From NCBI RefSeq assembly GCF_006345805.1, contig NC_042997.1:53072001-53136000 (forward strand): a stretch of 64,000 nt of DNA, written 5' to 3'. The DNA comes from Octopus sinensis. Lineage: Eukaryota. Under the pieces are notes generated by a model that did no database searches, had not been told where the DNA came from, and saw only the letters and a program-made list of their open reading frames with translations. How positions within the stretch are numbered: the stretch's first letter is position 1; every line of letters begins with the position of its first letter. A program made the position numbers and the translations under genes. Of the stretch, positions 6,591 to 61,369 are shown piece by piece.

Positions 6591-6919
6591 TATGTATAGA
6601 TATATGTGTGTGCATGTGCACGCCCCCCCCCCACACACACACACACATGCACACACAATGCATAAATATTTCTTTGAGATTTATTCAAGTTTGCAAAATT
6701 CAAGCTGGTTAGCAACAATTTTGGGGGTTTCTTTTTTATAATTAAGACAGTTTCAGAGATTTGTGAATATGTGAGTTGATGTGTGCGTATGAGTAAGTGT
6801 GGATATCCTTGCATACATGTTGTGATGTACATGTCTCTTTAGTACATATGCATATGTATGATTACTCTATGTATGTGTGTGCATGTGCTATATACATAAA
6901 GAATAATCACACATATATT

Positions 6920-7100
6920 GGTTTCAAATTTTGGCACAAGGCCAGCAGGTTTAGGGGGAGAGGGTCAGTCAATTACACCAACTTATTTTATCAACCCCAA
7001 AAGGAGGAAAAGCAAAATTTGAACCCATAATGTAAAGACAGACAAAATGCTGTTAAGCATTGCACCTGGTGTACTAATGATTTTGCTAGCTTGCTGCCTT
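6920..7100 (-). mobile_element. tRNA-derived SINE family A, degenerate
   Basis: Reverse complement of the ggcgagctggcagaa...gagttcaaatt...cctttcatcc consensus. Confidence 0.65.
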
Positions 7101-7149
7101 AATACATATATGTTGGTTTTAAATTTTGGCTAAACTACATTTTTATGTC

Positions 7150-9100
7150 CTGTGAGAATACTGTAACAAGTTCTGTCTCTTGATGTGAATATTACATAAA
7201 TACAGCTTCAGATCAGTGACATTAATTTTCTTTTCATTTGCAAACCTTAACAGAGTTGACCAGAGGTTCATTACCAGGATGAACAGCAGTGCAGACTAGC
7301 AGTCACTTTTGAATGTTCTTGTTTGTGACTATAGTATTTGCTTCAGTTCTTAGTGAGAATTGTGTGAACCGTGTTGATAGTCTTTTAGTGAAATTGATTA
7401 TAGCGAATGAAATTTTGGTAAAAAAATAGTGATTCTGGTGTCCATGATGAGAGACAGACTCAAACTCCTTCTAATATTCTAGTCATACTGTCAGACAGTT
7501 TCAGAGATGCTGCTTTACTTAAGGACAGCTTTGTTGATGAGGAGGCATTTGACACAATGCCAGACTAGTTGCTTTCCTGCTCCCTGATTATCAGTCACCA
7601 CATTGTTTTGTAGTAATCTTGGAGAAACACATTCAAGGAATTAGTCAACTATTTACAGATGATTTTAAGCATGTTATCACCTGTAGTTTTTCCTATGTGT
7701 GTTTCCTGGTTCTTAAGTATGAACTTTGTGCAACTGCTACATTATGTTCAGCATCCATTTTTTTTTTTTAAAACTGGTTGATGATAGCTTTCCTGCAGAA
7801 CTTGAGATTCCTATCCATATATTTAACTGCCAGGCTTTTCTTAGGTGATTTTCCATTGGATAGTTTTGCAACAACTATCAGCAAAGTTTTACTGGTAATG
7901 TTATGTTTTAGGAGAGTCATTTACACAGTACTCCCTTCATGGTTTGTTCAAACCATACTGCATTGTTTTTGTTTTGTTTTTGTTCCTTCTCGAGCCATGC
8001 CTGGCTCATAAGGGCCAGTTTCCCGGTTTCTTGGCGTATAGGTTCCCCACCTGGACGGGACGCCGGTCCTTTGCAGGTGAGCTGCAAGATGCAGGAGGAA
8101 AGAGTGAGAGAAAGTTGTGGCAAAAGAGTCAGTAGAAGTTTCGCCATTACCTTCTGCCGGAGCCGTGTGGAGCTTAGGTGTTTCGCTCATAAACACACAC
8201 ATCATCCAGTCTGAGATTCAAACCCGCGATCCCTCGACCGCAAGTCCACTGCTCTAACCACTAGGCCATGTGCCTCCACAAACCATACTGCATTGCATTT
8301 CTGGTACTTATTTATGTTCCAGATCACCTCTAAGTATGACTCCAGATCATTCGAAGGAAGAGCATTTACAACCCCAGCACTATGACCATCTATGTGGTAA
8401 TATACAGTTTGTGAGCTTAATACAAACTTCTGTTTGATAATCCTATAATTTTGTTATTTGCTACAATAACAAAGCTTTTGACTTATTGTTTGTAGTTCAC
8501 ATTTAAGGGCAACAAGTTTACTTTGTCAGTCTCTGTAAATTTGGGATAATCTACCATAAAGTCATTGTTAGTGCTTTGTGAATTCATTATTCACTTTGCA
8601 TATAAGGGTAGTATCCAATTATCCAATGATTTTGTGTATTCTGTCATTGTTTTCTTTTTGATAGAGCTAATGTATTTTGGTTATATTCTGTTATTTCTGT
8701 TGATTTTTATTAGTCCCATCAGTGACAACAGGTGATGTTGACACAACAAAACAATATGATATTGAGTGTCCCAAAATTTCAATTTATGCTAGATTTTATC
8801 GAGCATCCTGATCAATGACAGACAAATCTTGTCAGTAGATTTTTTGTTTACTCTTGTCATAACCACTTTCAATTGTTCATGTAAAAAGGGAAATTCTCTC
8901 TAAATTTTGCTGTTTTTTTTATACATCAGTTTGTATTCTTTACTCATTTCTATTTGTCTGTAATCAACTACCACATGTCCACATAATAGCGTCAGTCATT
9001 TTTCTGTGTTGGTGTTATCATTTTCATTTGGGTTGTGGTTCATGTTCTTAGCAAATTTCTTGGGACCAGAGTCTATTGGGCTTTTGATTCAGTTGCGAAT
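7150..9100 (-). mobile_element. Second, older R4/Dong-like LINE remnant
   Basis: Minus-strand degenerate RT motifs in the expected order: NGKSP (~7845), VITCL (~7670), DC*SALLFILVMN (~7285), DLKLY (~7205). Many stops; boundaries approximate. Confidence 0.45.
7966..8278 (-). mobile_element. tRNA-derived SINE (family C) with 17-bp TSD
   Basis: Minus-strand head tggcctagtggttagagc..gggtttgaatctc (A/B boxes), (AAAAC)n-like tail; TSD caaaccatactgcattg at 7949-7965 and 8279-8295. Confidence 0.85.
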
Positions 9101-9659
9101 TTTTAATTTTGCTAGGTAGAGACTATAATTTTCCACAATGAATATAGCTTGCTATATGAATATACCTGCTTCATGCTGAAATTGAAAGATATTTTACATC
9201 CAAGTAGTGCTTCATCCTGTGCATGTGACTGATTAGAAGATTTCCCTTGCATTTTTTCTAATTAGTACAGATTGTGATTAAATTCAGAAGTCCACTGAAA
9301 TTTCTCTTGATAGTTCCACAATCTATGAGAGCTAACTCTGGTTTTTTGTCTTTCTGGGGCATATGTTGCTATCTATGTATTACTTACCAGTTTAATTAGA
9401 CAACTTGATTGTTACTATGATCTTATCTAAACTTTTTTTTTTTTACATTAATGGCAAAAGTTGAAGGGATAGTGTTTATTTCTAAAGAGGATAACTAGTT
9501 CCATGCCAACATGTCTGACATCAATGCTTTTATGATAGAATTATATAACGAATTTGTTAGATTTAGAGTAATATCAAAGAAGTGGTAAGATTTTGTATTT
9601 ATAGTAATTAGCAGTACATTTTTGAAAAAGATGTTGACTTTTTGGAGATATATTCCACA

Positions 9660-10500
9660 CTCACATAAGATCAATCACAGAGTGGTATAATACAATGTCT
9701 AAAAGGAGGAATGCTTTGTTGGAAATACAGCATCTGATACTGTTCCTTTCTCTAGAGGGGCAAGAGAAATGTTTGTAAACCAGAAAACTTGGGTGGCTAT
9801 GAGTCAGGAATAACTTGCAAATGGGTTTCATATTACCAGCATCAGGATTTTTCCACAAGAAACATCAAATGGCATTTTGGGAAGCTTTAAAGCCTGGAAC
9901 TGATTTTTCTTGTCCTAGTAGACATGCACTTCTAGTAAATTCCAGTTACATCAACATTGTACACTTGTTCAATGTATTTAGTTTTCTTCAGCTTCTCATG
10001 ATAATTAGTAGCAGCTTTTGTATCAATACTGGCGGCTTCATTAGTCATTTTTATGTTTTGCAAATTAAGTTACCTCTTAGACCTTTCAAACAAAGCTTTA
10101 CTTGCAAAGAGAATATTTTTTTTATTTCATCAGTTGTTCCTTCTATTTTCTGAAAGTCATCATACAAACTTTTAGCTTTTGCTTGAATAACTACCACACT
10201 TATCGGTACATTATATTCAGTCTGATCAGTAATAGACATATTTAAGCTGTTCCATATTAAGTATCAATTGAAATTTATGAAAAAGCTATGTCTAGGCATT
10301 CAATGGAGTAGTTGCTTGAGCGCAACCTAATTTTATCTCTATTATCATGAATTGTTACCTCTGCAGACATGGCAAACTTTAATGCTTTTGTAGTATGGCT
10401 GAGTATTTCGCTCGCTTGAAAACTTTTAAAACATCAAACATTTGATGTAACCGCTTTATGAATACTTTTCATGTCACTGACTTCACTTCCGTTTGATAGT
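9660..10500 (-). mobile_element. Tigger/pogo-like DNA transposon remnant
   Basis: Minus strand: ITDQ..VPISVVVIQAKAKSLY (CENP-B-type HTH), then EQVYNVDVTGIY*KCM.TRT and VPGFKAS (start of the DDE domain); frameshifted. Confidence 0.7.
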
Positions 10501-12254: not shown

Positions 12255-13125
12255 TGCACATATAAAACATTATTTTCTGTGTGTGTATGCATCCATATGT
12301 GTACATCTATATCATCTTTATCATATTTAGCTATGAAAAGAATAAACATCAGCAGAAAAAGTGATAATTGAAAACAAAAATATTTTTCTGGTATCTGTTC
12401 CATCTAACTGACACAAGCTCCCTCTTTTTGTATTTGCCATTATAAATGCAATGAACCAGTAACTGGCTCATTAGAAACCAATGATGCTGTATTATTTGCA
12501 GAATGCTATATAACTTGACTTTTTGGCATTAAATTAAAATGTTTTATATTATCAGAATAACAAACATTACTTTTATTCATAATTGTGGAGATAGTGTATT
12601 TTGTTGCAATAATGAAAGACTATATTTGTTATTAAGAATAATTATTATTTCTTGTATATACTTGCTGTGTGTAAGTTAAAGGAAAATAAATTGTGTGGTC
12701 AAGTGATAATGGTTATTGATGACTACATAAACAAATATCATATGTCTGTTGGTAATGTGGTAATCCTATATGTTAGAAGATTGTGAAGGCATTGGAAGAG
12801 GTAGCTAAAAGCTGACAGCCAAGAGCAACATTTATCTAAGCTATTGATTTAAAGTACATAGCTGGTATAAAGACCAACCATGTGATAGGCAAACATAGGT
12901 CAGAAACAATCTTCAAACTCTTTTGAACCAGTGATGGTTCTTCTTAGTAGCATAGTCTGCTACAAATCACAACCAAATCTTCTTCAAATTGCATGCTGAC
13001 TGAGAGAGAATGATGGGATGATCATGACTAGAATGCCTTGAGCAGTCAGGTTGACTGGGGCTAAACAACAGCAGTAATCTTTGAACTCTGGTCACTGTTC
13101 TTATTGCTTGTTCATAGCTATCCTT

Positions 13126-13352
13126 GGCGAGCTGGCAGACATGTTAGCACGCTGGGCGAAATGCTTAGCGGTATTTCGTCTGTCATTACATTCTGAGTTC
13201 AAATTCCGCCGAGGTCGACTTTGCCTTCCATCCTTTCGGGGTCGATAAATAAAGTACTAGTTTCACACTGGGGTCAAAGCAATCGACTTAATCCCTTTGT
13301 CTGTCTTTGTTTGTCCCCTCTATGTTTAGCCCCTTGTGGGCAATAAAGAAAT
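13126..13352 (+). mobile_element. tRNA-derived SINE family A, near full-length
   Basis: ggcgagctggcaga (A box) .. gagttcaaattcc (B box) .. gtcgactttgccttccatcctttcggggtcgataaat central domain .. gggcaataaagaaat tail. Confidence 0.85.
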
Positions 13353-15554
13353 ATATACAGAACACAACTCTCAGTTTCCCTGACAACTGAACAGTGTGCT
13401 AGTTTCTAAACTTCTCATTTGATACTTTCTTTGTTCAGTTCTTCCTCCATTAGAATCAGCTTTATGCTGTAGTTCTATTAGAACTACATCATTGTAGAAC
13501 TATTTTCTTAATCTCTTCAATAAATATGATTCTATAGACATTCAAGTTAAACTCTGACTATACAAACATCACTAACAATCTTATCTCCTAGCACATATAA
13601 ATGTCATTTATATCTATTTTTTATCTTATAAACCTATTCAACATTCTGATTGAGTAATCTGCTAGATTTCCAGCTCAAACTTTTGAAAAAGTATCTGGAA
13701 AACAGATACCAATTTACTTTATGATAATGTTGAAACAGTTGAAGCTAGATAAAAGCTTACTGTAAGGACATACAATATCAATATCTCAGTTGGTGTATTT
13801 CTACTATTAGTTTATTCAGTATCCATGCTTTATGATTTTTGTATTTATTTGCATTAGAGGTTATGTTATTGTAAACCATACAAGTTTATATTTAACCATC
13901 TTGCTTTCATGACCCTGAGGGCAACTCAGGAGTTCTTTTGTTTTTTGTTTTCACAAAAAAGAAGACCTGTAACCACTTTATATTGCTTTGTTAAAGTAAG
14001 GTAAAATCTAAAGTAGTCATAAACTAATAGTATATGGTTGTCATCTTATCACAACATTAACAACAATAGTGAAAGCATTTGAATATGTAATGATTATAAT
14101 CAAAATAGGAATATGAAGCATCTTATGATTCTTATATATAGGAATCAAACCACATCTAGCTTTGATTTTTCCTACTGTCTCTTCAAAGAGAAATACTGGT
14201 TTTTCAAAACATTCCAAGAATTGTGGAATGTTATTTGGGTTATAGAGCAGCCAAATATAATCTTCTAAATTTATTTAAATGTAAGCAGAAGAAAATAATC
14301 ACAAATGCAGAGGCTCTAACTCCCACACAAATAGTCAGTAGAGGGAACTAAAACTAACTCTTGCCCAGAACTATATTTTTCTCACATAGTAACATAGCAG
14401 ACACATATCAAAGGCTGTCAGTAAGTATAAACTTAGATATCCATTTCACTTTCCAAATTCCCCCTGTAAAGCTTAATTCTAAAATGAATCTGCTTCATTC
14501 TAATGGAATAGTATTTAAAAAAAGACTACTTTTTTTTACGTTTTTACGTGCTGTAGGTATAGTTGGATAGGCAAATTAGTCGATATATCATTTTGCATTT
14601 TTAAGTATCTGTTACCAAGATATTCTTTGAACATTTCTTTTTATGTTTCTATTCCAAGAGAAACATTGTCTATCCATAGCTCACGGGAATATATGAGTGG
14701 AGGAGGGGGGATGAAGAAAATTGAAGCAATTAATGAAGACCTTGAAAATGGCTGCTTAACACATTTAAGAACATATTGACAGAAGAGAAGTTCCTTAGTG
14801 CAGTACCCTTGGAACTACACACATTTTTTATTCACAGATTTGTGAGAGAAAAAGTAATGGGTCTTTGTATACTTATTTATAAATGTAGTTCTAAAGAAGC
14901 AGAATTTTTTATGGTTACTTTTCCATGCTGTCATGGGTTGGACAGGACTTCATAATCTGAATCAATTCAATGGTTAAAAATATTTTTTTTGCATATGTGA
15001 ACATAGGTACTGTTTTAGACATTTTATCATTGTTTTTATGTAAACAATGCCAAGACAATGGGAAAACAACACACACACGCACACATATATACTTACACAA
15101 AAGCTTCTTACAGTTTCCTTATAACAATGTCATTGGTCAGTCTAAGACTATATTAAAAGACACCTGCCCCAGTGCCATGAAGTGGGTCTGAGCCTGAAAC
15201 TGCATGGCTTTGAAGCAAACTTCTTAACCACATGGTATTACATGCACCTAAAATGTATCCTCCTCCTCGTCGTCCTCATCCTCATCAGCAACATCAATTT
15301 GATATCCACTTTTCCATACTTGCATGGGTCAGACAAAATTAATCGAGACAGATTTTCTTCATCATGATACCTTTCTTGTCACCAACACTTACTCATTTCC
15401 AAGCAAGGTAATATTTCCTCACAACCAGACGATTAGAAGATTAGAAACGAATGACACTGTTTGTATGATGGTGACAATCATTCACAACTATCACATAATA
15501 CCAAGACAGGGAGGCACAAACACACACTCGCATACATATATACATACATAAACG

Positions 15555-16494: not shown

Positions 16495-16531
<37 letters not shown>

Positions 16532-16845
16532 ATGTCCGTTTTCCAGGATAGCATGGGTTGGACAGTTCAACAAGGGTCTGGGAAGCCAGGAGGCTGCACC
16601 AGGCTCCAGTCTGATCTGGCAGTGTTTCTACAGCTGGATGCCCTTCCAGGATAGCATGGGTTGGACAGTTCGACCGGGGTCTGGGAAGCCAGGAGGCTGC
16701 ACCAGGATCCAGTCTGATCTGGCAGTGTTTCTACAGCTGGGTGCCCTTCCTAACGTCAACCACTCCATGAGTGTAGTGGGTGATTTTTACGTCCCACTGG
16801 CACAGGTGTCAGGGGAGGCTGACAACAGCCATGATTGGTTGGTGC
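16495..16845 (-). mobile_element. RTE-LINE 3' end with an internal 103-bp tandem duplication
   Basis: (CAT)n tail; unit ttccaggatagcatggg...gcccttcc repeated at 16541 and 16644. Confidence 0.8.
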
Positions 16846-21686: not shown

Positions 21687-21938
21687 ATGTATGCCTGCAT
21701 ATATGTAAGATAATAGTTTCACTTTAATAGTGAAACTATTAAAGTGAAAGTATCTGACATTGCAATAGAGAAATGTTTCACTTTTGACACGTAATACTGA
21801 AATAGGATTGCTCTGGTTTCCTTTTCCAGAACACTGAGGTGAGAAGCTTCACCTTGAGCATAGCAATTCATCTGTAGAAAGTTTAGCCAGAATTGGGTAT
21901 GGAACAAATTCAATGTGAGAACAAATCAAGAAATTATT

Positions 21939-22409
21939 TACATTATTTACATTTGATGGATATTTGTCCTCATCTTGTTTGTTAAAACATTTCAGCTGAT
22001 ATACCCTCCAGCCTTCATCAGGTGTCTTAGGAGAATTTCGAACCTGGGTTTTCATTCCCAAAGTATTTTTCGATGTTGTCATTATTATTATTATTATTCA
22101 GATCACTGCCTGGAATTGAACTTGGGATAGTAGCCGACACTCTTAACCACTACACCAGCATATGGCATAGTGGTTAAGAGCGCAGGCTAACCCCAAGATT
22201 CCATGTTCGATTCCAGGCAGTGATCTGAATAATAATAATAATAATAACAACAACAACAACAACAACATCAAAAAATACCTTAGGAATGGGAACCCAGGTT
22301 CTAAATTTCCCCCAAGACACCTGATGAAGGCTGGAGGGTATATCAGCCAAAACGTTGTGTCAACAACAAACAAGATGAGGACAAATATCTGTCAAATGTA
22401 AATAATGTA
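21939..22409. mobile_element. ~470-bp palindromic element: head-to-head tRNA-like heads, (AAT)n, hammerhead motif (Penelope pLTR-like)
   Basis: The arms are reverse complements (tacattatttacatttga.. / ..tcaaatgtaaataatgta), centre ~22160. Right arm has A box tagtggttaag and B box gttcgattcc. Confidence 0.8.
22316..22361 (+). ncRNA. Minimal type I hammerhead ribozyme-like motif (G12>A variant)
   Basis: gacac CUGAUGA a ggcug[gaggguauau]cagcc aAAA cGUU guguc: stem I GACAC/GUGUC, stem II 5 bp, palindromic ACGU stem III. The mirror copy at 21986-22026 (-) keeps GAAA. Confidence 0.6.
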
Positions 22410-25400
22410 AAAAATGTACATAATTCCTCATTTACTTATTGATAGTACAAATTCACAAAAGTTAAGATGAAAGAGATTATTTTATAAGAGAGCAAATAAA
22501 CTGATAATTTCACTAAATAATTCCTTTTATTAATTTGTTAATTCAGGCTTAATTCCCTGTAGTTTCTTTTTCTCTGCATATCTTGTAATTAAAAGGCAAT
22601 AAGGGAGTTATGTGGTTGGTGGTTAGTCAATGGGTTCTTTGACCTGCCTACAATCAACACTGACCTGGGCCTCTACTACAACAATAACAATAACAATAAC
22701 AACAAGAAAAGCAGCTTCTATCATACTATAATTAAATCAATTTTTGATTATAGTACAAGAAGCTACTGATATAGTATATAAATATAAATATTTGTATTTA
22801 TGTAAGGGAGTAAGAGAGAAACTGGGAGAACATTTTGCTTCCTTTTAAGGAGAGAATCATGATAGTTTTATGAAGGTAGGAAGTAACATGTAGGTACACA
22901 TTACTTATGAAAATAAATATGGGACACGCACACACACAGCTGCTCACAAACACATGCAAGTCAGAATTTTATTCATTTAGAAGAGTAATCAAACTACAAG
23001 GGTCTATGATAGAGAGAAGAATGAATTACTTTTGTGGAGGAAGAAGAAGAAGAAGAAAAAAAAGGGCAGGATGAAGAAGTTACACATTAGTTTTAAGAGA
23101 GCAGTGAGAAAGTTGTTTTGAAAGAGTGAAAGAGAAAGAAAGAGAATGTAAATCATTCCAGTTACCTATATATTTTGCTGACCTATTTTCTGTTGAACTG
23201 ACTCAGATATCAAAATCACATCTTTAGAACCATGCTAAAGAATAATACCTCTTCACCAACACATTGGATCTCAGCTACATTTTGTGAAATAAGTAATTAA
23301 CATTTTGCAAAACAGAATTAACATTTTTTGTATCAACATACTTAAACTATACTGTACAGACAAGTGATATTTCTATAGTTGATGTTTAACAACATAAGTA
23401 TATGTGTGTGTGTGTTTAACTACGTATGTGTGGGAATGTGTGTGTGTGTCCCTACAAATAACACTTAATATACATTTACAAATAAAATACCATTACTAAT
23501 AGCCAGGTGAAACAGTGAGTAAGTGGTTAGAATGTTGATTTGGTAGGAGGGTGGAATTTAATGAGAGGGCAGTGTATTCATTTACAACAGACAATAGTAT
23601 TTACAAATGAAAAGAACATATCCTTCAATGGTACAAAACCTGACTTCAAAAGATATTGATACAAAACAGAAGTCTTTAATGCATTTGGTAGGTACCATTC
23701 CAAATTGTTTTTTGTTTTTAATTATTTGTTATATTTAAAAAGGGACATTCTTGTCCTGTGTCCACAAAGTAAGAATACTACAATTAATGTATAATGAATG
23801 AAGAAAATGAATTAAGAAATTCCAGTATAAGTAAAAGGCAAAACTATACTTGGTGAGATTAAGAAGAAAAAAATTATGGGAAGTTGTTACTGTCCTTCAC
23901 ACCACCCCTGCTGCCCTATCAATCTTGGCTGAAGAGGCCTATGGTTAAAAAAATTCCAGTCTTCACCACCACCACCACCATTCCTTCCCCCACCCTCCAA
24001 GAGTATCTAGTAGTTCAATATCCTTGTTTAAGGCTGGGGGTGTAATTTGAGAGAGAATAGGTTGTTATTTCTAAGATTGGTTATTGTCTATCAAATGGAG
24101 GAATCAGGTTCAACAGGTGGATTCCAGTAAATGTAGCATGAAATGATAAATTCTGAAGATCAAAGTGATTTATAGTTGAAAAACAAGAATCAAGAAACAA
24201 CATAATGATAGGCTAGAAGATTAAAAGAGTTTTAGTCAAGGAGAGATAGGTAGCTTTTTTTCTTTTTTTACCTGGATGTGGTCCATGATGCCACTAATCA
24301 AAGGTGTATTATCTTGTGATATCTGAACACTAAAGAAAGATATATGCAAGCCTAGTAGACAGTCAACAGCTGTTAAGAACTAAAATAGATTTTGGCACTG
24401 AAGAAAAGACAAGAATAATTGATGTGGTTTTCACCGTCTGGAGAATAGAGGGATTCCAAAAATGTTTGCAGGAAATGGTGAATTTTAGCACAAACAGAAA
24501 AATGATAAATTAAAGTGGATGAGTTTCACTTTTTATCACTAGAGTAGATTTTAAATTAAAGTTTATTAAAGCAGAGTTTCTGAAGTATTAAAATAGAGTT
24601 TACTGAGATAAGATTGTTTAGTCATTCCTTCAGATACTATTTCATTTAAGGCTGTTTTAAACTAATCTATTTTTACATCACTAACAGGGATGTATCTTTA
24701 CATCACACACAAGGAAGGTGGGGAGAGTATGCAAGTTAAATTCAGGATCAATTTTAAACTGAACCTCTGTCTTTAGGTTAAAAGCTAGTTAAATGAATAT
24801 TTAACACTCCTGAAATACACTGAAAACTAGCAAAAATAAACTAAAAGTCTATATGACTAACAAAAGAAATTCGCTTCTAAAATGAAATGGAATATTAGAA
24901 ATATGGAAAAATCTAAAGAAACGCCACGACTGTTGATTTTACCAAATTAACTTTCCTTTGTTTAAGTTTTTCCTATTAATTATTTTTTCACACATTTCTG
25001 AATCAAGAATACGACAGTGCTTATCAGTTTATTTCTGTCATCACATTTAAAATTCCATTTAAAATTTTCAAAAGAGCACAGTTTTCTTCAGAGAATACTT
25101 CAGTTGTGCTATAAAGAAAATAAACATCATTCTTCAATCATCGCCGCAACTACTAACACAACCATTATCACTATATCACTACCACAACATTTCTATAAAT
25201 AATTTCCAGAAAATCTCTGGATATGTAAGTGTGAGAACATAAATGTGTGTGCGTGTATAATTTAATATACAGAGGATTTAAGTATGAGCAGCTATAAGTT
25301 TCATGCCTATGATAATACAATAATCAGACAAACTTGTATATCATACCTGTCCAATAATACATGACATGTGCATGTTAAATAATTATCACTCAGGGGATGG

Positions 25401-34779: not shown

Positions 34780-35194
34780 GGCGTAGGAATAGCTGTGTGG
34801 TAAGTAGCTTGCTTACCAACCACATGGTTTCGGGTTCAGTCTTACTGCATGGCACCTTGGACAAGTGTCTTCTACTATAGCCTCAGGCCGACCAAAGCCT
34901 TGTGAGTGGATTTGGTAGACGGAAACTGAAAGAAGCCCGTTGTATATATGTATATATATATATATATGTATGTACGTGTGTGTCTGTTTTTTTCACTCCA
35001 ACATCGCTTGACAACCGATGGTTGTGTTTACATCCCTGTAACTTAGCAGTTCAGCAAAAGAGACCGATAGAATAAGTACTAGGTTTACAAAGAATAAGTC
35101 CTGTGGTTGATTTGCTCAACTAAAGGCGGTGCTCCAGCATGGCCACAGTCAAATGACTGAAACAAGTAAAAGAGTAAAAGAGAGTAAAAAGAGT
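34780..35194 (+). mobile_element. tRNA-derived SINE family B, full-length, with internal (TA)/(TG) microsatellite
   Basis: gctgtgtggtaagtagc..gggttcagtc..ccttggacaagtgtctt..internal microsatellite..atgactgaaacaagtaaaagagt tail. Confidence 0.88.
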
Positions 35195-37079: not shown

Positions 37080-54018
<16,939 letters not shown>

Positions 54019-54231: not shown

Positions 54232-55323
54232 CTATGTGTGTATGTATACATACATGCACACATGTGTGTATATATGATTTATACAAAAGGCTTTTAAATG
54301 AAAACTGCAAAAGTGGTATAAAATGTATTTGATCTTCAATCCTGAGTTAAATGATATTGAACCTTGAATCCTACAATTATTTTCCCAAAATATTTATAAC
54401 TAGCAGTATGAAAATTTCATAGAACTATGTGAGAAATATGTGAGTTTATTATCTGTTAGCTTTTGCAGTTTTCTTTTGAATGTTTCCTTGTGTACAAAGT
54501 AAAATATTTAGGAAGATGAATTAAAAATAAATATTTAAAAAAAAGGTTACTTCTCACTCTTGTTTAACCTAATATAGTGATCAAAATTTCAGCTTAGTTT
54601 ATTTATATTTTCATTATAGTATCTATGTAACTTATATTCTTTTCCACAAATTTAAATAAAACATTATTTTTTTCAGATTAACATTGTTATTCTTATCACC
54701 AATATTGTTGTCCTTTATATTTGTATCATCATTAGTAAAGCTAAAAATTTGTTCGTGGTTTTGGTACAAATTTGGATATTATTCATCTTAAGTTGATAAT
54801 AATTGTTACCTAATCTGTTTTAACAATTAAATGGATTAGGTTACAAAGATTCATCAACTTGATAACATTTTGTTATTTCAGATAGATTCTTTTTGGTTGG
54901 CTTCAGCAATATTGTACTCAGGGAATTTAATACTAAATGAAATTCACTTAAGATATTTAAAGTTTTCCCAGATTTGTTCTGTCTTTGGGAAATATTTTAT
55001 TTTCTCACCATTAAAAAATTTACATGAACAATATGATTTATTCTAATGTTATTTATATAGAAATGAGAACTAAATAAAATATCAAAAATGTATATTTTCA
55101 TACATAGTTGTATGTAAATATATCGATTTTGAGTGAATGTATAGATGTGTGTATGCATGTATGTATAAAGAGGCCTATTTTATGGGCTTAAATTTATATA
55201 TAAGTGCTATATAAATCAATTAAAAAGGAATATATAGAGCATGTAAATGAAAATATATAAATACAGAGTTACACATGAACATATTGGAGAGCATATTTGC
55301 TTCCAAGCATTTCTATTAAACAA

Positions 55324-55800
55324 CATCATCATCATCATCATCGTTTAACGTCCGCTTTCCATGCTGGCATGGGTTGGACGATTTGACTGAGGACTGGTGA
55401 ACCAGATGGCTGCACCAGGCTCCAATCTGATCTGGCAGAGCTGGATGACCTTCCTAGCGCCAACCACTCTGAGAGTGTAGTGGGTGCTTTTATGTGCCAC
55501 CCGCACGAAGGCCAGTCAGGCAGTACTGGCAACAGCCACGCACAAATGGTGTTTTTTTATGTGCCACCTGCATTCTGTCAAGTATGCATACTGACATTAC
55601 ACATCCAGGAGAGCATACTGGCTTCATTCCTTGTGAGCTTACGCATGTCCTCAGCAGTCACGGTCCATGTTTCACTGCCATGTAGCATGGCTGTTCGTAC
55701 ATATGCGTCATACAGTCTACCTTTTACTCTGAGCAAGAGGCCCTTTGTCACCAGCAGAAGTAAGAGCATCTGAACTTTGCCCAGGTTATTCTTATTCTAT
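55324..55800 (-). mobile_element. RTE-clade LINE fragment (RT C-terminal piece joined to 3' UTR and (GAT)n tail)
   Basis: KGRLYDAYVRTAMLHGSETW..L.RNEASML.WMC on the minus strand next to the abundant 3'-end repeat. Confidence 0.85.
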
Positions 55801-57968: not shown

Positions 57969-58299
57969 TTAAACTGCTTCAACAGTAAATTTGATGTGAT
58001 GTGTTCTCCATTTACAAAAAATGTGGTTCATAAAAACCTGTTTTGAATCAGCTAAAAGTTTAATTGTGGAATTGCTGTTTTATATAATAGAGAGGTGAAT
58101 TAGAAACTTCTATTCACTGGTTTGGCTCCTTTTGTATTTCAATGTTCAATTCCTGATGGATTTATTTTCTGAATTTCAGTTATCTGATGATGGTCCAATA
58201 AAATAACTACAAGTGATACTGTAATTCTTGAAAGTACTAATGTATGCCTTTATATGCACACACAAGGGTGTGTGTGTATAATATTTGTAAACAAATATT

Positions 58300-58826
58300 A
58301 TATAGATATATTTGTAAACAAACCCAAAGGCTTTGTAAGTTATGGAGATAGAGTGACTAAGGAAGTCTCTTAGTAGAATAATAACTATATAATAATATAT
58401 CATAATAATGATATACTCCAATTTAAAGCGACATTTTTTTAATATACACAATTGACTGAAAAATGACGAGCTAACCCAGGCCAGAATTGAACCCACATAG
58501 CTCCGTGCACATCCAATTGGGCCAAATGCTCACCCATCAATTTCAGCCAAATTTTATAAATATATACTTTAGACTTCCATAAGTCGCTCTATCTCCATAA
58601 CTTAAAAAGCCTTTGGGTTTGTTTACAAATACTATATGTAGTATTGGACAGTTAAAGTATATATTCATAAAATTTGGCTGAAATTGATGGGTGAGTGTTT
58701 GGCACAATTGGATGTGCATGGAACCGTGTTAGCATTGATATATGGGTTTGATTCTGGCCTGGGTTAGCTCATCATTTTTCAGTCAATTGGTTATAGAAAA
58801 AAAATGTAGCTTTAAATTGGAGTATA

Positions 58827-58871
<45 letters not shown>

Positions 58872-59103
58872 AATAAGAAACTTCCATAGTCACTCTATTT
58901 CTGTAACTTACAAAGCCTTTGGGTTTGTTTATAAATACTATATGTAGTATTTGACAGTTAAAGTATATATGCATAAAATTTGGTTGAAATTTATGGGTGA
59001 GTGTTTGGCCCAATTGGATGTGCATGGAGTTGTGTTAGTGTTGATATGTGGGTTTGATTCCAGCCTTGGTTAGCTCATCATTTTTCAGTAAATTGTTTAT
59101 ATA
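58300..59103. repeat. ~310-bp tRNA-like-headed repeat: one inverted plus two tandem copies
   Basis: Inverted copy ~58300-58570; direct copies ~58571-58878 and ~58879-59103, the latter resuming at ~59760 after the LINE. Confidence 0.8.
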
Positions 59104-59762
59104 ACCATGATGGTCCTCTGGAGGACACTTGTCCTAAGCCACTTTGACTATTGCTCTCAGCTATGGTCACCATCCAGTGTCAAGTTAATCACAGAACTTG
59201 AGGCAATCCAACGAAGCTACACGAAGAAGATAGCCTCTGTGCAGCATATAAGCTATTGGGAAAGACTCAAGAGATTGAGACTCTATTCTTTAGAGCGTAG
59301 GTGAGAAAGATATGCCATAATATACATCTGGAAGATCCTAGAAGGACTTGTCCCAAACTTTGGCATCGAGAGTTACACAAATGCCAGAACTGGGCGCCAC
59401 TGCATAGTGCCAAGGACTCCAAATTTGCCATCAAGATGTAGGACAAGATACTGTGATAGCCTGGGCTTCCGAGGCCCACAGCTCTTCAATATCCTCCCGA
59501 AGAACCTAAGAGACCTGCATGGGGTGGATGCAGATGTCTTTAAAATGAAACTGGATCTCTTCTTGTCAGGTGTCCCAGATGAACCAACTTCACGGCAGGA
59601 GGTGCAGATGAGGGCAGCTGCATCGAACTCTCTCTTGCACCAGATGGCATTTGCTAAAAAGCATTCGTGAAGTAAAATCATGTAGCAACACCAAATGGCG
59701 GAGCCACAGCTTGTGAGCTGAAACTAAATAAAATAAAATAAAAAATAAATAAAATAAAAAAA
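59104..59762 (+). mobile_element. CR1-like LINE 3' fragment
   Basis: LVLSHFDYCSQLWSP..LEAIQRSYTK..YWERLKRLRLYSLERR*ERY..WKILEGLVPN..FKMKLDLFL..VPDEP; single in-frame TGA; (AAAAT)n tail. Confidence 0.88.
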
Positions 59763-60167: not shown

Positions 60168-60535
60168 GGAGTGGCTGTGTGGTAAGTAGCTTGCTAACCA
60201 ACCACATGGTTCCGGGTTCAGTCCCACTGCGTGGCATCTTGGGCAAGTGTCTTCTGATATAGCCCCGGGCCGACCAATGCCTTCTGAGTGGATTTGGTAG
60301 ACGGAAACTGAAAGAAGCCCGTTGTGTATGTATGTGTGTGTCTGTGTTTGTCCCCCTAGCATTGCTTGACAACCAATGCTGGTGTGTTTACGTCCCCATC
60401 ACTTAGCGGTTCGGCAAAAGAGACCGATAGAATAAGTACTGGGCTTACAAAGAATAAGTCCCGGGGTCGATTTGCTCGACTAAAGGCGGTGCTCCAGCAT
60501 GGCCACAGTCAAATGACTGAAACAAGTAAAAGAGT
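60168..60535 (+). mobile_element. tRNA-derived SINE family B, full-length (partial copy follows at ~60735-60962)
   Basis: Highly similar to 34780-35194. Confidence 0.9.
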
Positions 60536-61369
60536 AACTGGATACATTTACACATACACACACTCTCACAAAGGACTGAGGTGACAGGTGATTCACTGTG
60601 CCTGAGAAGACCTGTCCATCTCAGGAAAGAAATGTTTATGCTTATGTCCATCCTCCACACCCAATCTTTGCCTGTCAAGCTTTCCTCTACTCATTACACT
60701 AGAATGTATGCACACACTTGCATGCATTTGTATATATAGCCTCAGGCCAACCAAAGCCTTGTAAGTGGATTTGGTAGACAGAAACTGAAAGAAGCCCATC
60801 ATGTGTATCCCCTCTGCTATCGCTTGAGAACTGGTGCTGGTGTGTTTATGTCCCTGTAACTTGGCAGTTTGGCCGTGGGGTCGATTTCTTTGACTAAAAC
60901 TCTCTTAGGCAGTGCTCCAGCAGGGTCACAGTCAAATGACTGAAACAAGTAAAAGCGTAAAAGAATATATATATTATCATTTAGTGACCATATTCCAATG
61001 AGGAAGATTAGGAAATGACTGTCCATGTCCAGTGCCGAAAAAGGTGGTTTGAAGAGCAGCAGATCAGTAAAAATGATACAGTAGATAGGGGAAGGGTAAG
61101 AGAGATAAATGACATGTGGTTGGGTATGTTGCACAGAGATTGGGAGATGTATGGTGGTGGAGGAAACATAATTTGGTGGCTTGAGGTTAATCAATGTAAA
61201 ATGTCAGTGGAGAGGACAGTATTAAAGATAGATATCAAGTGAAATGGTTATGGATAGTAAATTGTATCAAGGAAAAGGTGATATTAGAGAGATAATGGGT
61301 GGCTGTAGTGTCTTGAGGAAATTGGGTGAAGAGCCTGTGTGTGAATATGTATACACACGCAGTGCTTCC

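What the first reader, a model, noticed from the sequence alone, without database searches (positions are those of the whole stretch)
21939..22409. Palindromic retroelement joining tRNA-like Pol III heads to minimal hammerhead ribozymes
Seen: a ~470-bp inverted repeat. Each arm reads outward from the centre as tRNA-like head (A box tagtggttaag, B box gttcgattcc), then (AAT/AAC)n, then gacac-CUGAUGA-stem II (ggcug/cagcc)-[G]AAA-CGUU-guguc. The right arm has a perfect stem I but G12>A; the left arm keeps GAAA but has lost the 3' strand of stem I, so the two-arm consensus is an intact hammerhead. Established: minimal type I hammerheads with a palindromic ACGU stem III, thought to cleave as dimers, occur in Penelope-like element pLTRs and retrozymes, and inverted pLTR arrangements are typical of Penelope insertions. 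Inference: a non-coding, Pol III-transcribed, self-cleaving SINE/retrozyme mobilised by Penelope machinery, possibly undescribed in cephalopods.
Basis: partly seen in the sequence, partly recalled or inferred. Interest (0 to 1): 0.8.

Follow-up and report, generated by a model that had tools for sequence, protein, structure and literature searches.

The report
Penelope retrotransposon with captured tRNA promoter
This palindrome is two back-to-back, broken copies of the end piece of a very common protein-coding Penelope retrotransposon; copy starts pile up sharply at a tRNA-derived stretch in that end piece, so the element likely uses a captured RNA polymerase III promoter, next to a predicted self-cutting ribozyme that overlaps the first codons of its own gene.

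Summary
The inverted repeat is real (window 21933 to about 22431), but it is neither one palindromic element nor a separate non-coding SINE. It is two 5'-truncated, head-to-head copies of the pseudo-LTR of an autonomous Penelope/Poseidon-type retrotransposon (RT + GIY-YIG, about 838 codons; roughly 20,000 or more arms genome-wide), a routine Penelope insertion shape. Both window hammerheads are mutated; the family majority is an intact minimal Penelope hammerhead, and it lies inside the first codons of the ORF. What is unusual: the pseudo-LTR opens with a tRNA-Arg-like cassette with A and B boxes, and copy 5' ends pile up at its start (19 of 29 stop within 15 nt; about 7% per nt against 0.2-0.4% in most other stretches). 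That points to a captured Pol III promoter which makes the element shed SINE-like short copies of itself. The whole 2.7-kb unit has no T4 Pol III terminator (P about 0.03, weak), so Pol III may even make the full-length RNA. RNA-seq of a related species was uninformative; promoter use and self-cleavage are untested. No description was found in ten literature searches; Repbase and Dfam could not be checked.

The parts
21933..22157 (-). Left arm: 5'-truncated copy of the Penelope pseudo-LTR, element positions +8 to +241 (+1 = first base of the tRNA-like head)
22158..22431 (+). Right arm: 5'-truncated copy of the pseudo-LTR, element positions +3 to about +258, carrying part of the 3' tail extension that the left arm lacks
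22158..22227 (+). tRNA-derived cassette, right arm (best match among sampled host tRNAs: tRNA-Arg(TCT))
   Evidence: family majority aligns end to end, 51 of 72 aligned positions identical, z 8.3 against shuffles; window copy 64 of 70 to the majority
22163..22174 (+). Pol III A box (one CpG change)
   Evidence: sequence, tRNA numbering
22205..22214 (+). Pol III B box
   Evidence: sequence
22099..22157 (-). tRNA-derived cassette, left arm: A box 22146-22157, B box 22112-22122 with a CpG change, 9-nt deletion
22228..22265 (+). (AAT/AAC)n microsatellite, right arm; length varies from about 14 to over 300 nt among copies
22081..22098 (-). (AAT)n microsatellite, left arm
22286..22288 (+). ATG at element +113, predicted start codon of the Penelope ORF (frame runs through hammerhead and tail into the RT in tandem copies)
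22316..22361 (+). Minimal type I hammerhead, right arm: stem I 22316-22320/22357-22361, CUGAUGA 22321-22327, unpaired A 22328, stem II 22329-22333/22344-22348, G12 mutated to A at 22349 (predicted inactive), predicted cut site after 22356
21984..22026 (-). Minimal hammerhead, left arm: core kept, C11.1>U, C15.2>U and 6-nt deletion in stem I (predicted inactive)
22362..22431 (+). 3' tail of the pseudo-LTR, which is also N-terminal coding sequence; contains a 9-nt unit whose copy number varies in frame

Best explanation
The locus is two decayed, head-to-head copies of the pseudo-LTR of an autonomous Penelope retrotransposon, and that pseudo-LTR likely works as an RNA polymerase III promoter taken from a tRNA gene. 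Shown: the unit order is ORF end - 45-nt UTR - tRNA cassette - microsatellite - ATG - hammerhead - tail - rest of ORF (RT, GIY-YIG); copy 5' ends pile up within about 7 nt upstream of the tRNA start; about 40% of arms have an inverted partner directly upstream. Inferred mechanism: Pol III starts about 6-7 nt before the tRNA-like +1; the element's own RT/endonuclease primes at or near the tail and copies back to that RNA end, giving about 280-nt SINE-like copies that outnumber ORF-linked ones several-fold; the cDNA end often snaps back on a 5-bp hairpin spanning +1 or switches template, giving palindromes such as this one. The hammerhead would cut only as a dimer in multi-unit RNA, and a cut would remove the start codon, so uncut RNA would be message and cut RNA template. 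Whether Pol III also makes the full 2.7-kb RNA is open (no T4 terminator in the unit; weak support).
For: Linkage to ORF: (24 of 25: 23 by BLAST, 1 by eye; four loci are one duplicated insertion). RT: Pfam RVT_1 E 5e-9; endonuclease: ESM Atlas GIY-YIG clusters at 0.96. One 786-codon frame at depth 23-43 that opens upstream through the hammerhead in a natural copy, with the same hammerhead-coded peptide in a distant relative. 5' ends: head-anchored positional sample, 75 of 90 stop within about 12 nt of +1 and 15 go on 20-467 nt; tail-anchored sample, 19 of 29 arms that reach the head stop in a 15-nt window, 7.0% per nt against 0.37, 0.20 and 0.39% in three other stretches and 1.1% just inside the head. 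Whole-genome exact counts: head 2,760, UTR 39 nt upstream 956, about 10-16 thousand against about 2 thousand after correcting for match rates. 56 of 72 short copies were not classed as hairpin fold-backs, and their match runs up to -7 (10 cases) and past it once. Two of four insertions whose upstream pseudo-LTR reaches the head start there and run on into the ORF. In D. virilis Penelope the internal promoter sits in the same place, the pseudo-LTR (PMC2377424, passages). No T4 on the sense strand of ORF or pseudo-LTR; 10 of 11 control PLE ORFs have at least one.
Against: No direct transcription evidence: three raw RNA-seq runs of a related species gave equal strands, a depth profile like the copy gradient and no pile-up of starts or ends at the head or the cut site. 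The T4 result weakened with better coverage (P 0.009, 0.034); A5 runs are also depleted (P 0.013) and nine or more 4-mers are more depleted than TTTT. A and B boxes decay like the rest of the head in copies (5.0% against 5.4%) and the hammerhead core like its flanks (3.8% against 5.1%; 15 of 88 intact), so there is no sign of selection among copies. No clear excess of 5' ends at the hammerhead cut (4 of 90 at +181 to +184, two from one palindrome). The fold-back class is under-called by the script. Pol III RNAs are uncapped (general knowledge), so translation from them needs an extra, untested step.
Confidence: 0.65

Rival explanations
1. Ordinary Penelope pseudo-LTR with a passenger tRNA remnant. 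The RNA is made by Pol II (an internal promoter at the same spot, as in D. virilis, or read-through), and the pile-up of 5' ends is a Pol II start or an RT stop and snap-back at the small hairpin spanning +1.
For: D. virilis Penelope uses a TATA-less internal promoter in the pseudo-LTR (PMC2377424). A hairpin does span +1 and at least 16 of 72 short copies fold back on it. No Pol III evidence in RNA; boxes not preferentially conserved among copies.
Against: The pile-up coincides with the tRNA start, where a type 2 Pol III promoter would initiate; both boxes match the consensus while the cloverleaf has decayed past recognition; most short copies are not hairpin fold-backs; other small palindromes in the unit give no such pile-up.
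Confidence: 0.22
2. One reading: an independent non-coding SINE or retrozyme that borrowed a Penelope tail and spreads in trans as its own lineage.
For: Short head-to-tail copies outnumber ORF-linked ones several-fold and each carries its own boxes, so some could be re-transcribed.
Against: The head is part of the autonomous element; short and long copies share the same polymorphisms and haplotypes and differ at no fixed site (73 and 44 heads, 59 and 42 tails); the hammerhead is coding sequence; no short tandem arrays of the retrozyme kind were seen in the sampled loci.
Confidence: 0.06
3. The tRNA-like fold in a long Pol II transcript is cut by RNase P at +1, making the 5' end seen in the copies.
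For: Many copies start at or within 2 nt of +1.
Against: Ten non-fold-back copies extend to -7, upstream of an RNase P cut; the acceptor stem pairs at only about 5 of 7 positions and no tRNA scanner calls the fold.
Confidence: 0.05

Closest known systems
EN+ Penelope-like elements, Penelope/Poseidon clade (Craig et al. 2021, PMC8557442; Schostak et al. 2008, PMC2377424)
   Same: Single ORF with RT then C-terminal GIY-YIG, no zinc-finger linker; pseudo-LTRs from partial tandems; inverted 5'-truncated copy upstream; 30-40-nt tail on one end; pseudo-LTR overlaps the ORF start.
   Different: The pseudo-LTR begins with a tRNA-derived A/B-box cassette at which copy 5' ends pile up; the described D. 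virilis promoter resembles TATA-less LINE promoters. None of 11 control PLE ORFs had an A+B box pair within the up to 600 nt downstream.
Minimal type I hammerheads of Penelope pseudo-LTRs (Cervera and de la Pena 2014, PMC4209133)
   Same: CUGANGA plus one unpaired base, G10.1-C11.1, short stem I, palindromic stub of stem III; thousands of single copies, some on opposite strands 100-700 bp apart.
   Different: Nothing in the ribozyme itself; stem II is 5 bp. Its overlap with the first codons of the ORF is shown here in two families; I did not see this stated in the parts read.
Schistosoma SM-alpha / Sj-alpha hammerhead SINE-like repeats (known to me through the review PMC6765202, passages; primary papers not held)
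   Same: Pol III promoter next to a hammerhead in a retro-mobile repeat.
   Different: Those are non-coding tandem repeats with canonical hammerheads; here both parts belong to an autonomous protein-coding element.
Metazoan non-LTR retrozymes (Cervera and de la Pena 2020, PMC7229834, passages)
   Same: About 300-nt units with a type I hammerhead, low GC.
   Different: Retrozymes are non-coding short tandem repeats with canonical hammerheads giving small circles; this unit is dispersed or inverted, ORF-linked and minimal.
tRNA-derived SINEs of octopus (OK, OR1, OR2; Ohshima and Okada 1994, citation only seen in PMC4758252; tRNA-Arg origin of OR1/OR2 recalled)
   Same: tRNA-derived head with A and B boxes; short, high-copy.
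   Different: The head is built into the partner retrotransposon rather than joined to its tail in a separate lineage; sequences could not be compared.

Membership tests
EN+ Penelope-like element (Penelope/Poseidon) | Single ORF with Penelope-type RT | tested here: met
   786-codon frame; Pfam RVT_1 E 5e-9 above cut-off; motifs run parallel to the Poseidon and Penelope rows printed from the supplement of PMC8557442 (compared by eye)
EN+ Penelope-like element (Penelope/Poseidon) | C-terminal GIY-YIG endonuclease, no zinc-finger linker | tested here: met
   ESM Atlas top clusters GIY-YIG at 0.95-0.96, 10 of 10 named hits share the family; linker read. Pfam scan itself gave no hit and the fold model was unusable (pLDDT 40)
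EN+ Penelope-like element (Penelope/Poseidon) | Pseudo-LTR / partial tandem, inverted 5'-truncated copy, tail on one end | tested here: met
   22 of 30 ORF starts preceded by the tail; inverted arm adjacent in 36 of 90 and 43 of 90; 3' ends cluster at +232-251 and +273-277
EN+ Penelope-like element (Penelope/Poseidon) | Placement in the clade by RT phylogeny with named references | not tested
   no named reference sequences were available as tool inputs
Minimal Penelope hammerhead | CUGANGA-H, G10.1-C11.1, GAAA, palindromic 15.2-16.2, NUH, short stem I | tested here: met
   family majority; 3,715 exact cores; not met by either window arm
Minimal Penelope hammerhead | Stem covariation | tested here: inconclusive
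   copies are about 5.6% from the majority and show only decay; the one subfamily change in the core is at the free position 7; relative P0018 keeps the core-coded residues with a different stem II peptide, DNA not available
Minimal Penelope hammerhead | Self-cleavage as a dimer | not testable with these tools
   no excess of 5' ends at the cut, no read ends there; unconstrained dimer fold did not give the active form
tRNA-derived SINE | tRNA-derived head with A and B boxes at the 5' end of copies | tested here: met
tRNA-derived SINE | Non-coding lineage separate from its partner retrotransposon | tested here: not met
tRNA-derived SINE | Transcribed by Pol III | not testable with these tools
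   RNA-seq laid cannot show it
Non-LTR retrozyme | Non-coding short tandem repeats with canonical hammerheads | tested here: not met
   dispersed or inverted copies, minimal hammerhead inside an ORF

The most novel reading that the evidence does not exclude
A protein-coding retrotransposon transcribed end to end by RNA polymerase III from a captured tRNA-Arg gene: the terminator-free 2.7-kb unit is read through in tandem, a hammerhead inside the first codons switches the RNA from message to template, and the same promoter makes the element breed its own SINE, a caught-in-the-act origin of a Penelope-dependent SINE.
Probability: 0.3. Interest if true: 0.75.

Novelty: new variant of a known kind. 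Interest (0 to 1): 0.5.

Why it matters
How Penelope-like elements are transcribed and how their tandem and inverted shapes arise is stated to be unresolved (PMC8557442). This family offers tens of thousands of copies with a sharply defined RNA 5' end, a fold-back hotspot at that end and a ribozyme overlapping the start codon, so those questions become testable with simple assays. If Pol III drives it, it blurs the line between autonomous retrotransposons (Pol II) and SINEs (Pol III) and shows one way a SINE can be born from inside its partner. For annotation: a repeat that looks like a tRNA SINE in an octopus-like genome is really a Penelope end.

Tried and rejected
Rfam scans of the window region, of a near-majority head and of a near-majority hammerhead: no tRNA or hammerhead hit. 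ARAGORN: none. Pfam found no GIY-YIG; the PDB sequence search gave only weak RT hits; the AlphaFold model was too poor to search with. Sequencing-run search: no RNA holder listed on record; raw RNA-seq of a related organism laid on a full-length copy was uninformative on starts, ends and strand. An apparent cluster of inverted-arm starts just 3' of the hammerhead cut did not hold in the tail-anchored sample. Separate SINE lineage: no diagnostic site. Selection on boxes or catalytic core among copies: none seen. AATAAA depletion as a Pol II sign: not significant (2 against 3.6). No target-site duplication is evident at the window insertion (by eye). DNA of the closest protein relatives (52-68% identity) could not be obtained, so whether they carry the tRNA cassette is open; the metagenome scan returned only distant PLEs (25-42%). 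Lunse 2017 and Ferbeyre 1998 were not held. The family is not in the supplement of PMC8557442 by name or motif search, nor in the one searchable supplement file of PMC4209133 (file 1 was not searched and may bear on this).

Full report
Observation. The inverted repeat is real: 511 aligned columns at 78%, left arm 21933-22157 on the minus strand, right arm 22158 to about 22431 on the plus strand. Each arm reads head, microsatellite, hammerhead, tail as described. The right hammerhead has G12>A; the left has C11.1>U, C15.2>U and a 6-nt deletion; these point changes are CpG transitions. Rfam and ARAGORN recognise neither part.

Family. Exact whole-genome counts are 11,656 for a 20-nt tail motif, 3,715 for a strict hammerhead core, 2,760 for a head motif and 956 for a motif 39-19 nt upstream of the head, with 0 for each reversed control. 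Match rates give about 19,000 arms from the tail motif (38 of 62; likely low, as that sample favours young copies), about 10-16 thousand heads (10 of 60) and about 2,100 upstream UTRs (14 of 31); the hammerhead rate (5 of 62) gives a higher, very loose figure. Copies are about 5.6% from the majority. The majority hammerhead is intact and has the features listed for minimal Penelope hammerheads in PMC4209133 (parts 1-2 of 4 read): unpaired base after A9, G10.1-C11.1, palindromic stem III stub, short stem I.

It is a Penelope pseudo-LTR. In L012 the head follows a broken RT-thumb and endonuclease frame. Of 25 loci found with that endonuclease DNA, 24 continue into the head (23 by BLAST, one by eye; four are one duplicated insertion). 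Walking upstream gave RT (Pfam RVT_1 E 5e-9) and full-length copies such as L438 and L441. The column majority at depth 23-43 is one 786-codon frame; the C-terminal domain groups with GIY-YIG clusters at 0.96, although Pfam missed it. In 22 of 30 loci found with the ORF start, the same tail lies directly upstream. A natural copy translates without a stop from the ATG at +113 through hammerhead and tail into the ORF, a 9-nt unit in the tail varies in frame in 16 of 19 copies and the C-run is in frame in 24 of 26, and a relative about 53% identical starts its alignment at the same hammerhead-coded peptide. So the hammerhead is coding sequence. Seven relatives at 52-68% were found, one cluster named from a barnacle. 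Inverted 5'-truncated copies and a one-sided tail are standard for the class (PMC8557442, passages); here 36 of 90 and 43 of 90 arms have an adjacent inverted arm. The window is one such insertion, with both arms decaying separately.

The unusual part. The head aligns end to end with a host tRNA-Arg(TCT) (51 of 72 positions, z 8.3), the best of 22 tRNA sequences from only six isotypes, so the isotype is provisional. Copy 5' ends pile up at it. In the first 90 head matches by position, 75 stop within about 12 nt of +1 and 15 go on 20-467 nt. In the first 90 tail matches, which were not chosen on the head, 29 reach it and 19 stop in a 15-nt window: 7.0% per nt against 0.37% (+101 to +196), 0.20% (+26 to +75), 1.1% (+4 to +25) and 0.39% upstream (22 arms ending in the microsatellite were not resolved further, two long copies are cut by the fetch edge, and a few arms are pairs of one insertion). 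After dropping three duplicates, 72 short copies split into 16 hairpin fold-backs, 30 with an inverted arm starting elsewhere and 26 with none; the script under-calls short fold-backs, but among the 56 others the match reaches -7 ten times and passes it once. An RNA end about 6-7 nt before the tRNA start is what a type 2 Pol III promoter would give (general knowledge), and the pseudo-LTR is where D. virilis Penelope has its internal promoter (PMC2377424, passages). Of four insertions whose upstream pseudo-LTR reaches the head, two start there and run into the ORF and two continue into the previous unit. Short and ORF-linked copies share polymorphisms and haplotypes, with no fixed difference, so the short ones are shed by the same masters, not a separate SINE.

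Could Pol III make the whole RNA? The sense strand has no run of four T in the ORF or the 322-nt UTR plus pseudo-LTR. Codon shuffles expect 2.7 (P 0.034); an earlier, shallower majority gave P 0.009. Eleven control PLE ORFs (80 metagenome loci, 23 with a frame of 300 codons or more, 11 after dereplication) have 49 runs against 40.6 expected, 10 of 11 at least one. Against: A5 runs are depleted too (P 0.013), TTTT is not among the ten most depleted 4-mers, and controls are single copies. This is a necessary condition met, not proof.

Against or silent. Boxes and catalytic core decay like their flanks; 15 of 88 hammerheads remain intact; 5' ends show no clear excess at the cut. Three raw RNA-seq runs from a related organism (6,810-10,155 reads laid each, about 6% of each run) show equal strands, a depth gradient like copy number and no start or end pile-up at head or cut; reads do show the fold-back junction at -7, so that shape is shared by the relative.

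Literature. Ten searches (listings and abstract starts) found no Penelope with a tRNA-derived promoter and no description of this family. Passages were read in PMC6765202 (Pol III hammerhead SINE-like repeats of Schistosoma), PMC7229834, PMC6962438, PMC8967140 and PMC4758252. The supplement of PMC8557442 lists octopus Naiad and Hydra elements but not this family. Repbase, Dfam and subscription papers were out of reach, and a repeat this common may be catalogued there.

Verdict. The locus itself is a routine Penelope insertion with dead ribozymes. The family is a new variant of a known kind: a Penelope whose pseudo-LTR likely runs on a captured tRNA promoter (0.65), possibly for the full-length RNA (0.3). 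Interest 0.5.

Noticed in passing
window 58292-59104: A second repeat family (541 first-look candidates): an about 305-nt unit in partial tandems and inversions with TA-rich flanks, holding an A-box/B-box-like cassette followed by a T5 run; no hammerhead core match in 18 loci. Looks like a non-autonomous Penelope-like element with its own Pol III cassette; partner not sought.
   Followed up: partly
element +76 to +92 (window 22228-22265): The (AAT/AAC)n tract sits in what would be the 5' leader between the tRNA cassette and the ATG; A-rich and (CAA)n leaders aid cap-independent translation in some viruses (recalled), which would matter for an uncapped Pol III RNA. Speculative.
   Followed up: no
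P0007 cluster: Among the nearest protein relatives found (52% identity over the C-terminal 289 aa) is a cluster named from the barnacle Amphibalanus amphitrite; the closer ones (60-68%) are unnamed. Could reflect horizontal transfer among marine animals or only database coverage.
   Followed up: no
element +64, +151, +220: Two or more subfamilies differ at linked sites; the change inside the hammerhead core is at position 7, the one free position, and is a conservative Asp/Glu change in the overlapping frame.
   Followed up: partly
window 13125-13353, 39293-39516, 34785-35179, 60168-60537, 16505-16831, 55321-55538 and others: Several other dispersed repeats, some with tRNA-like heads, typical of the abundant SINE families of such genomes (family names not checked).
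   Followed up: no
L322/L323 (G000:C1:30954803-30954858): A palindromic insertion folded back on the 8-nt palindrome just 3' of the hammerhead cut site, a second, minor fold-back point.
   Followed up: no
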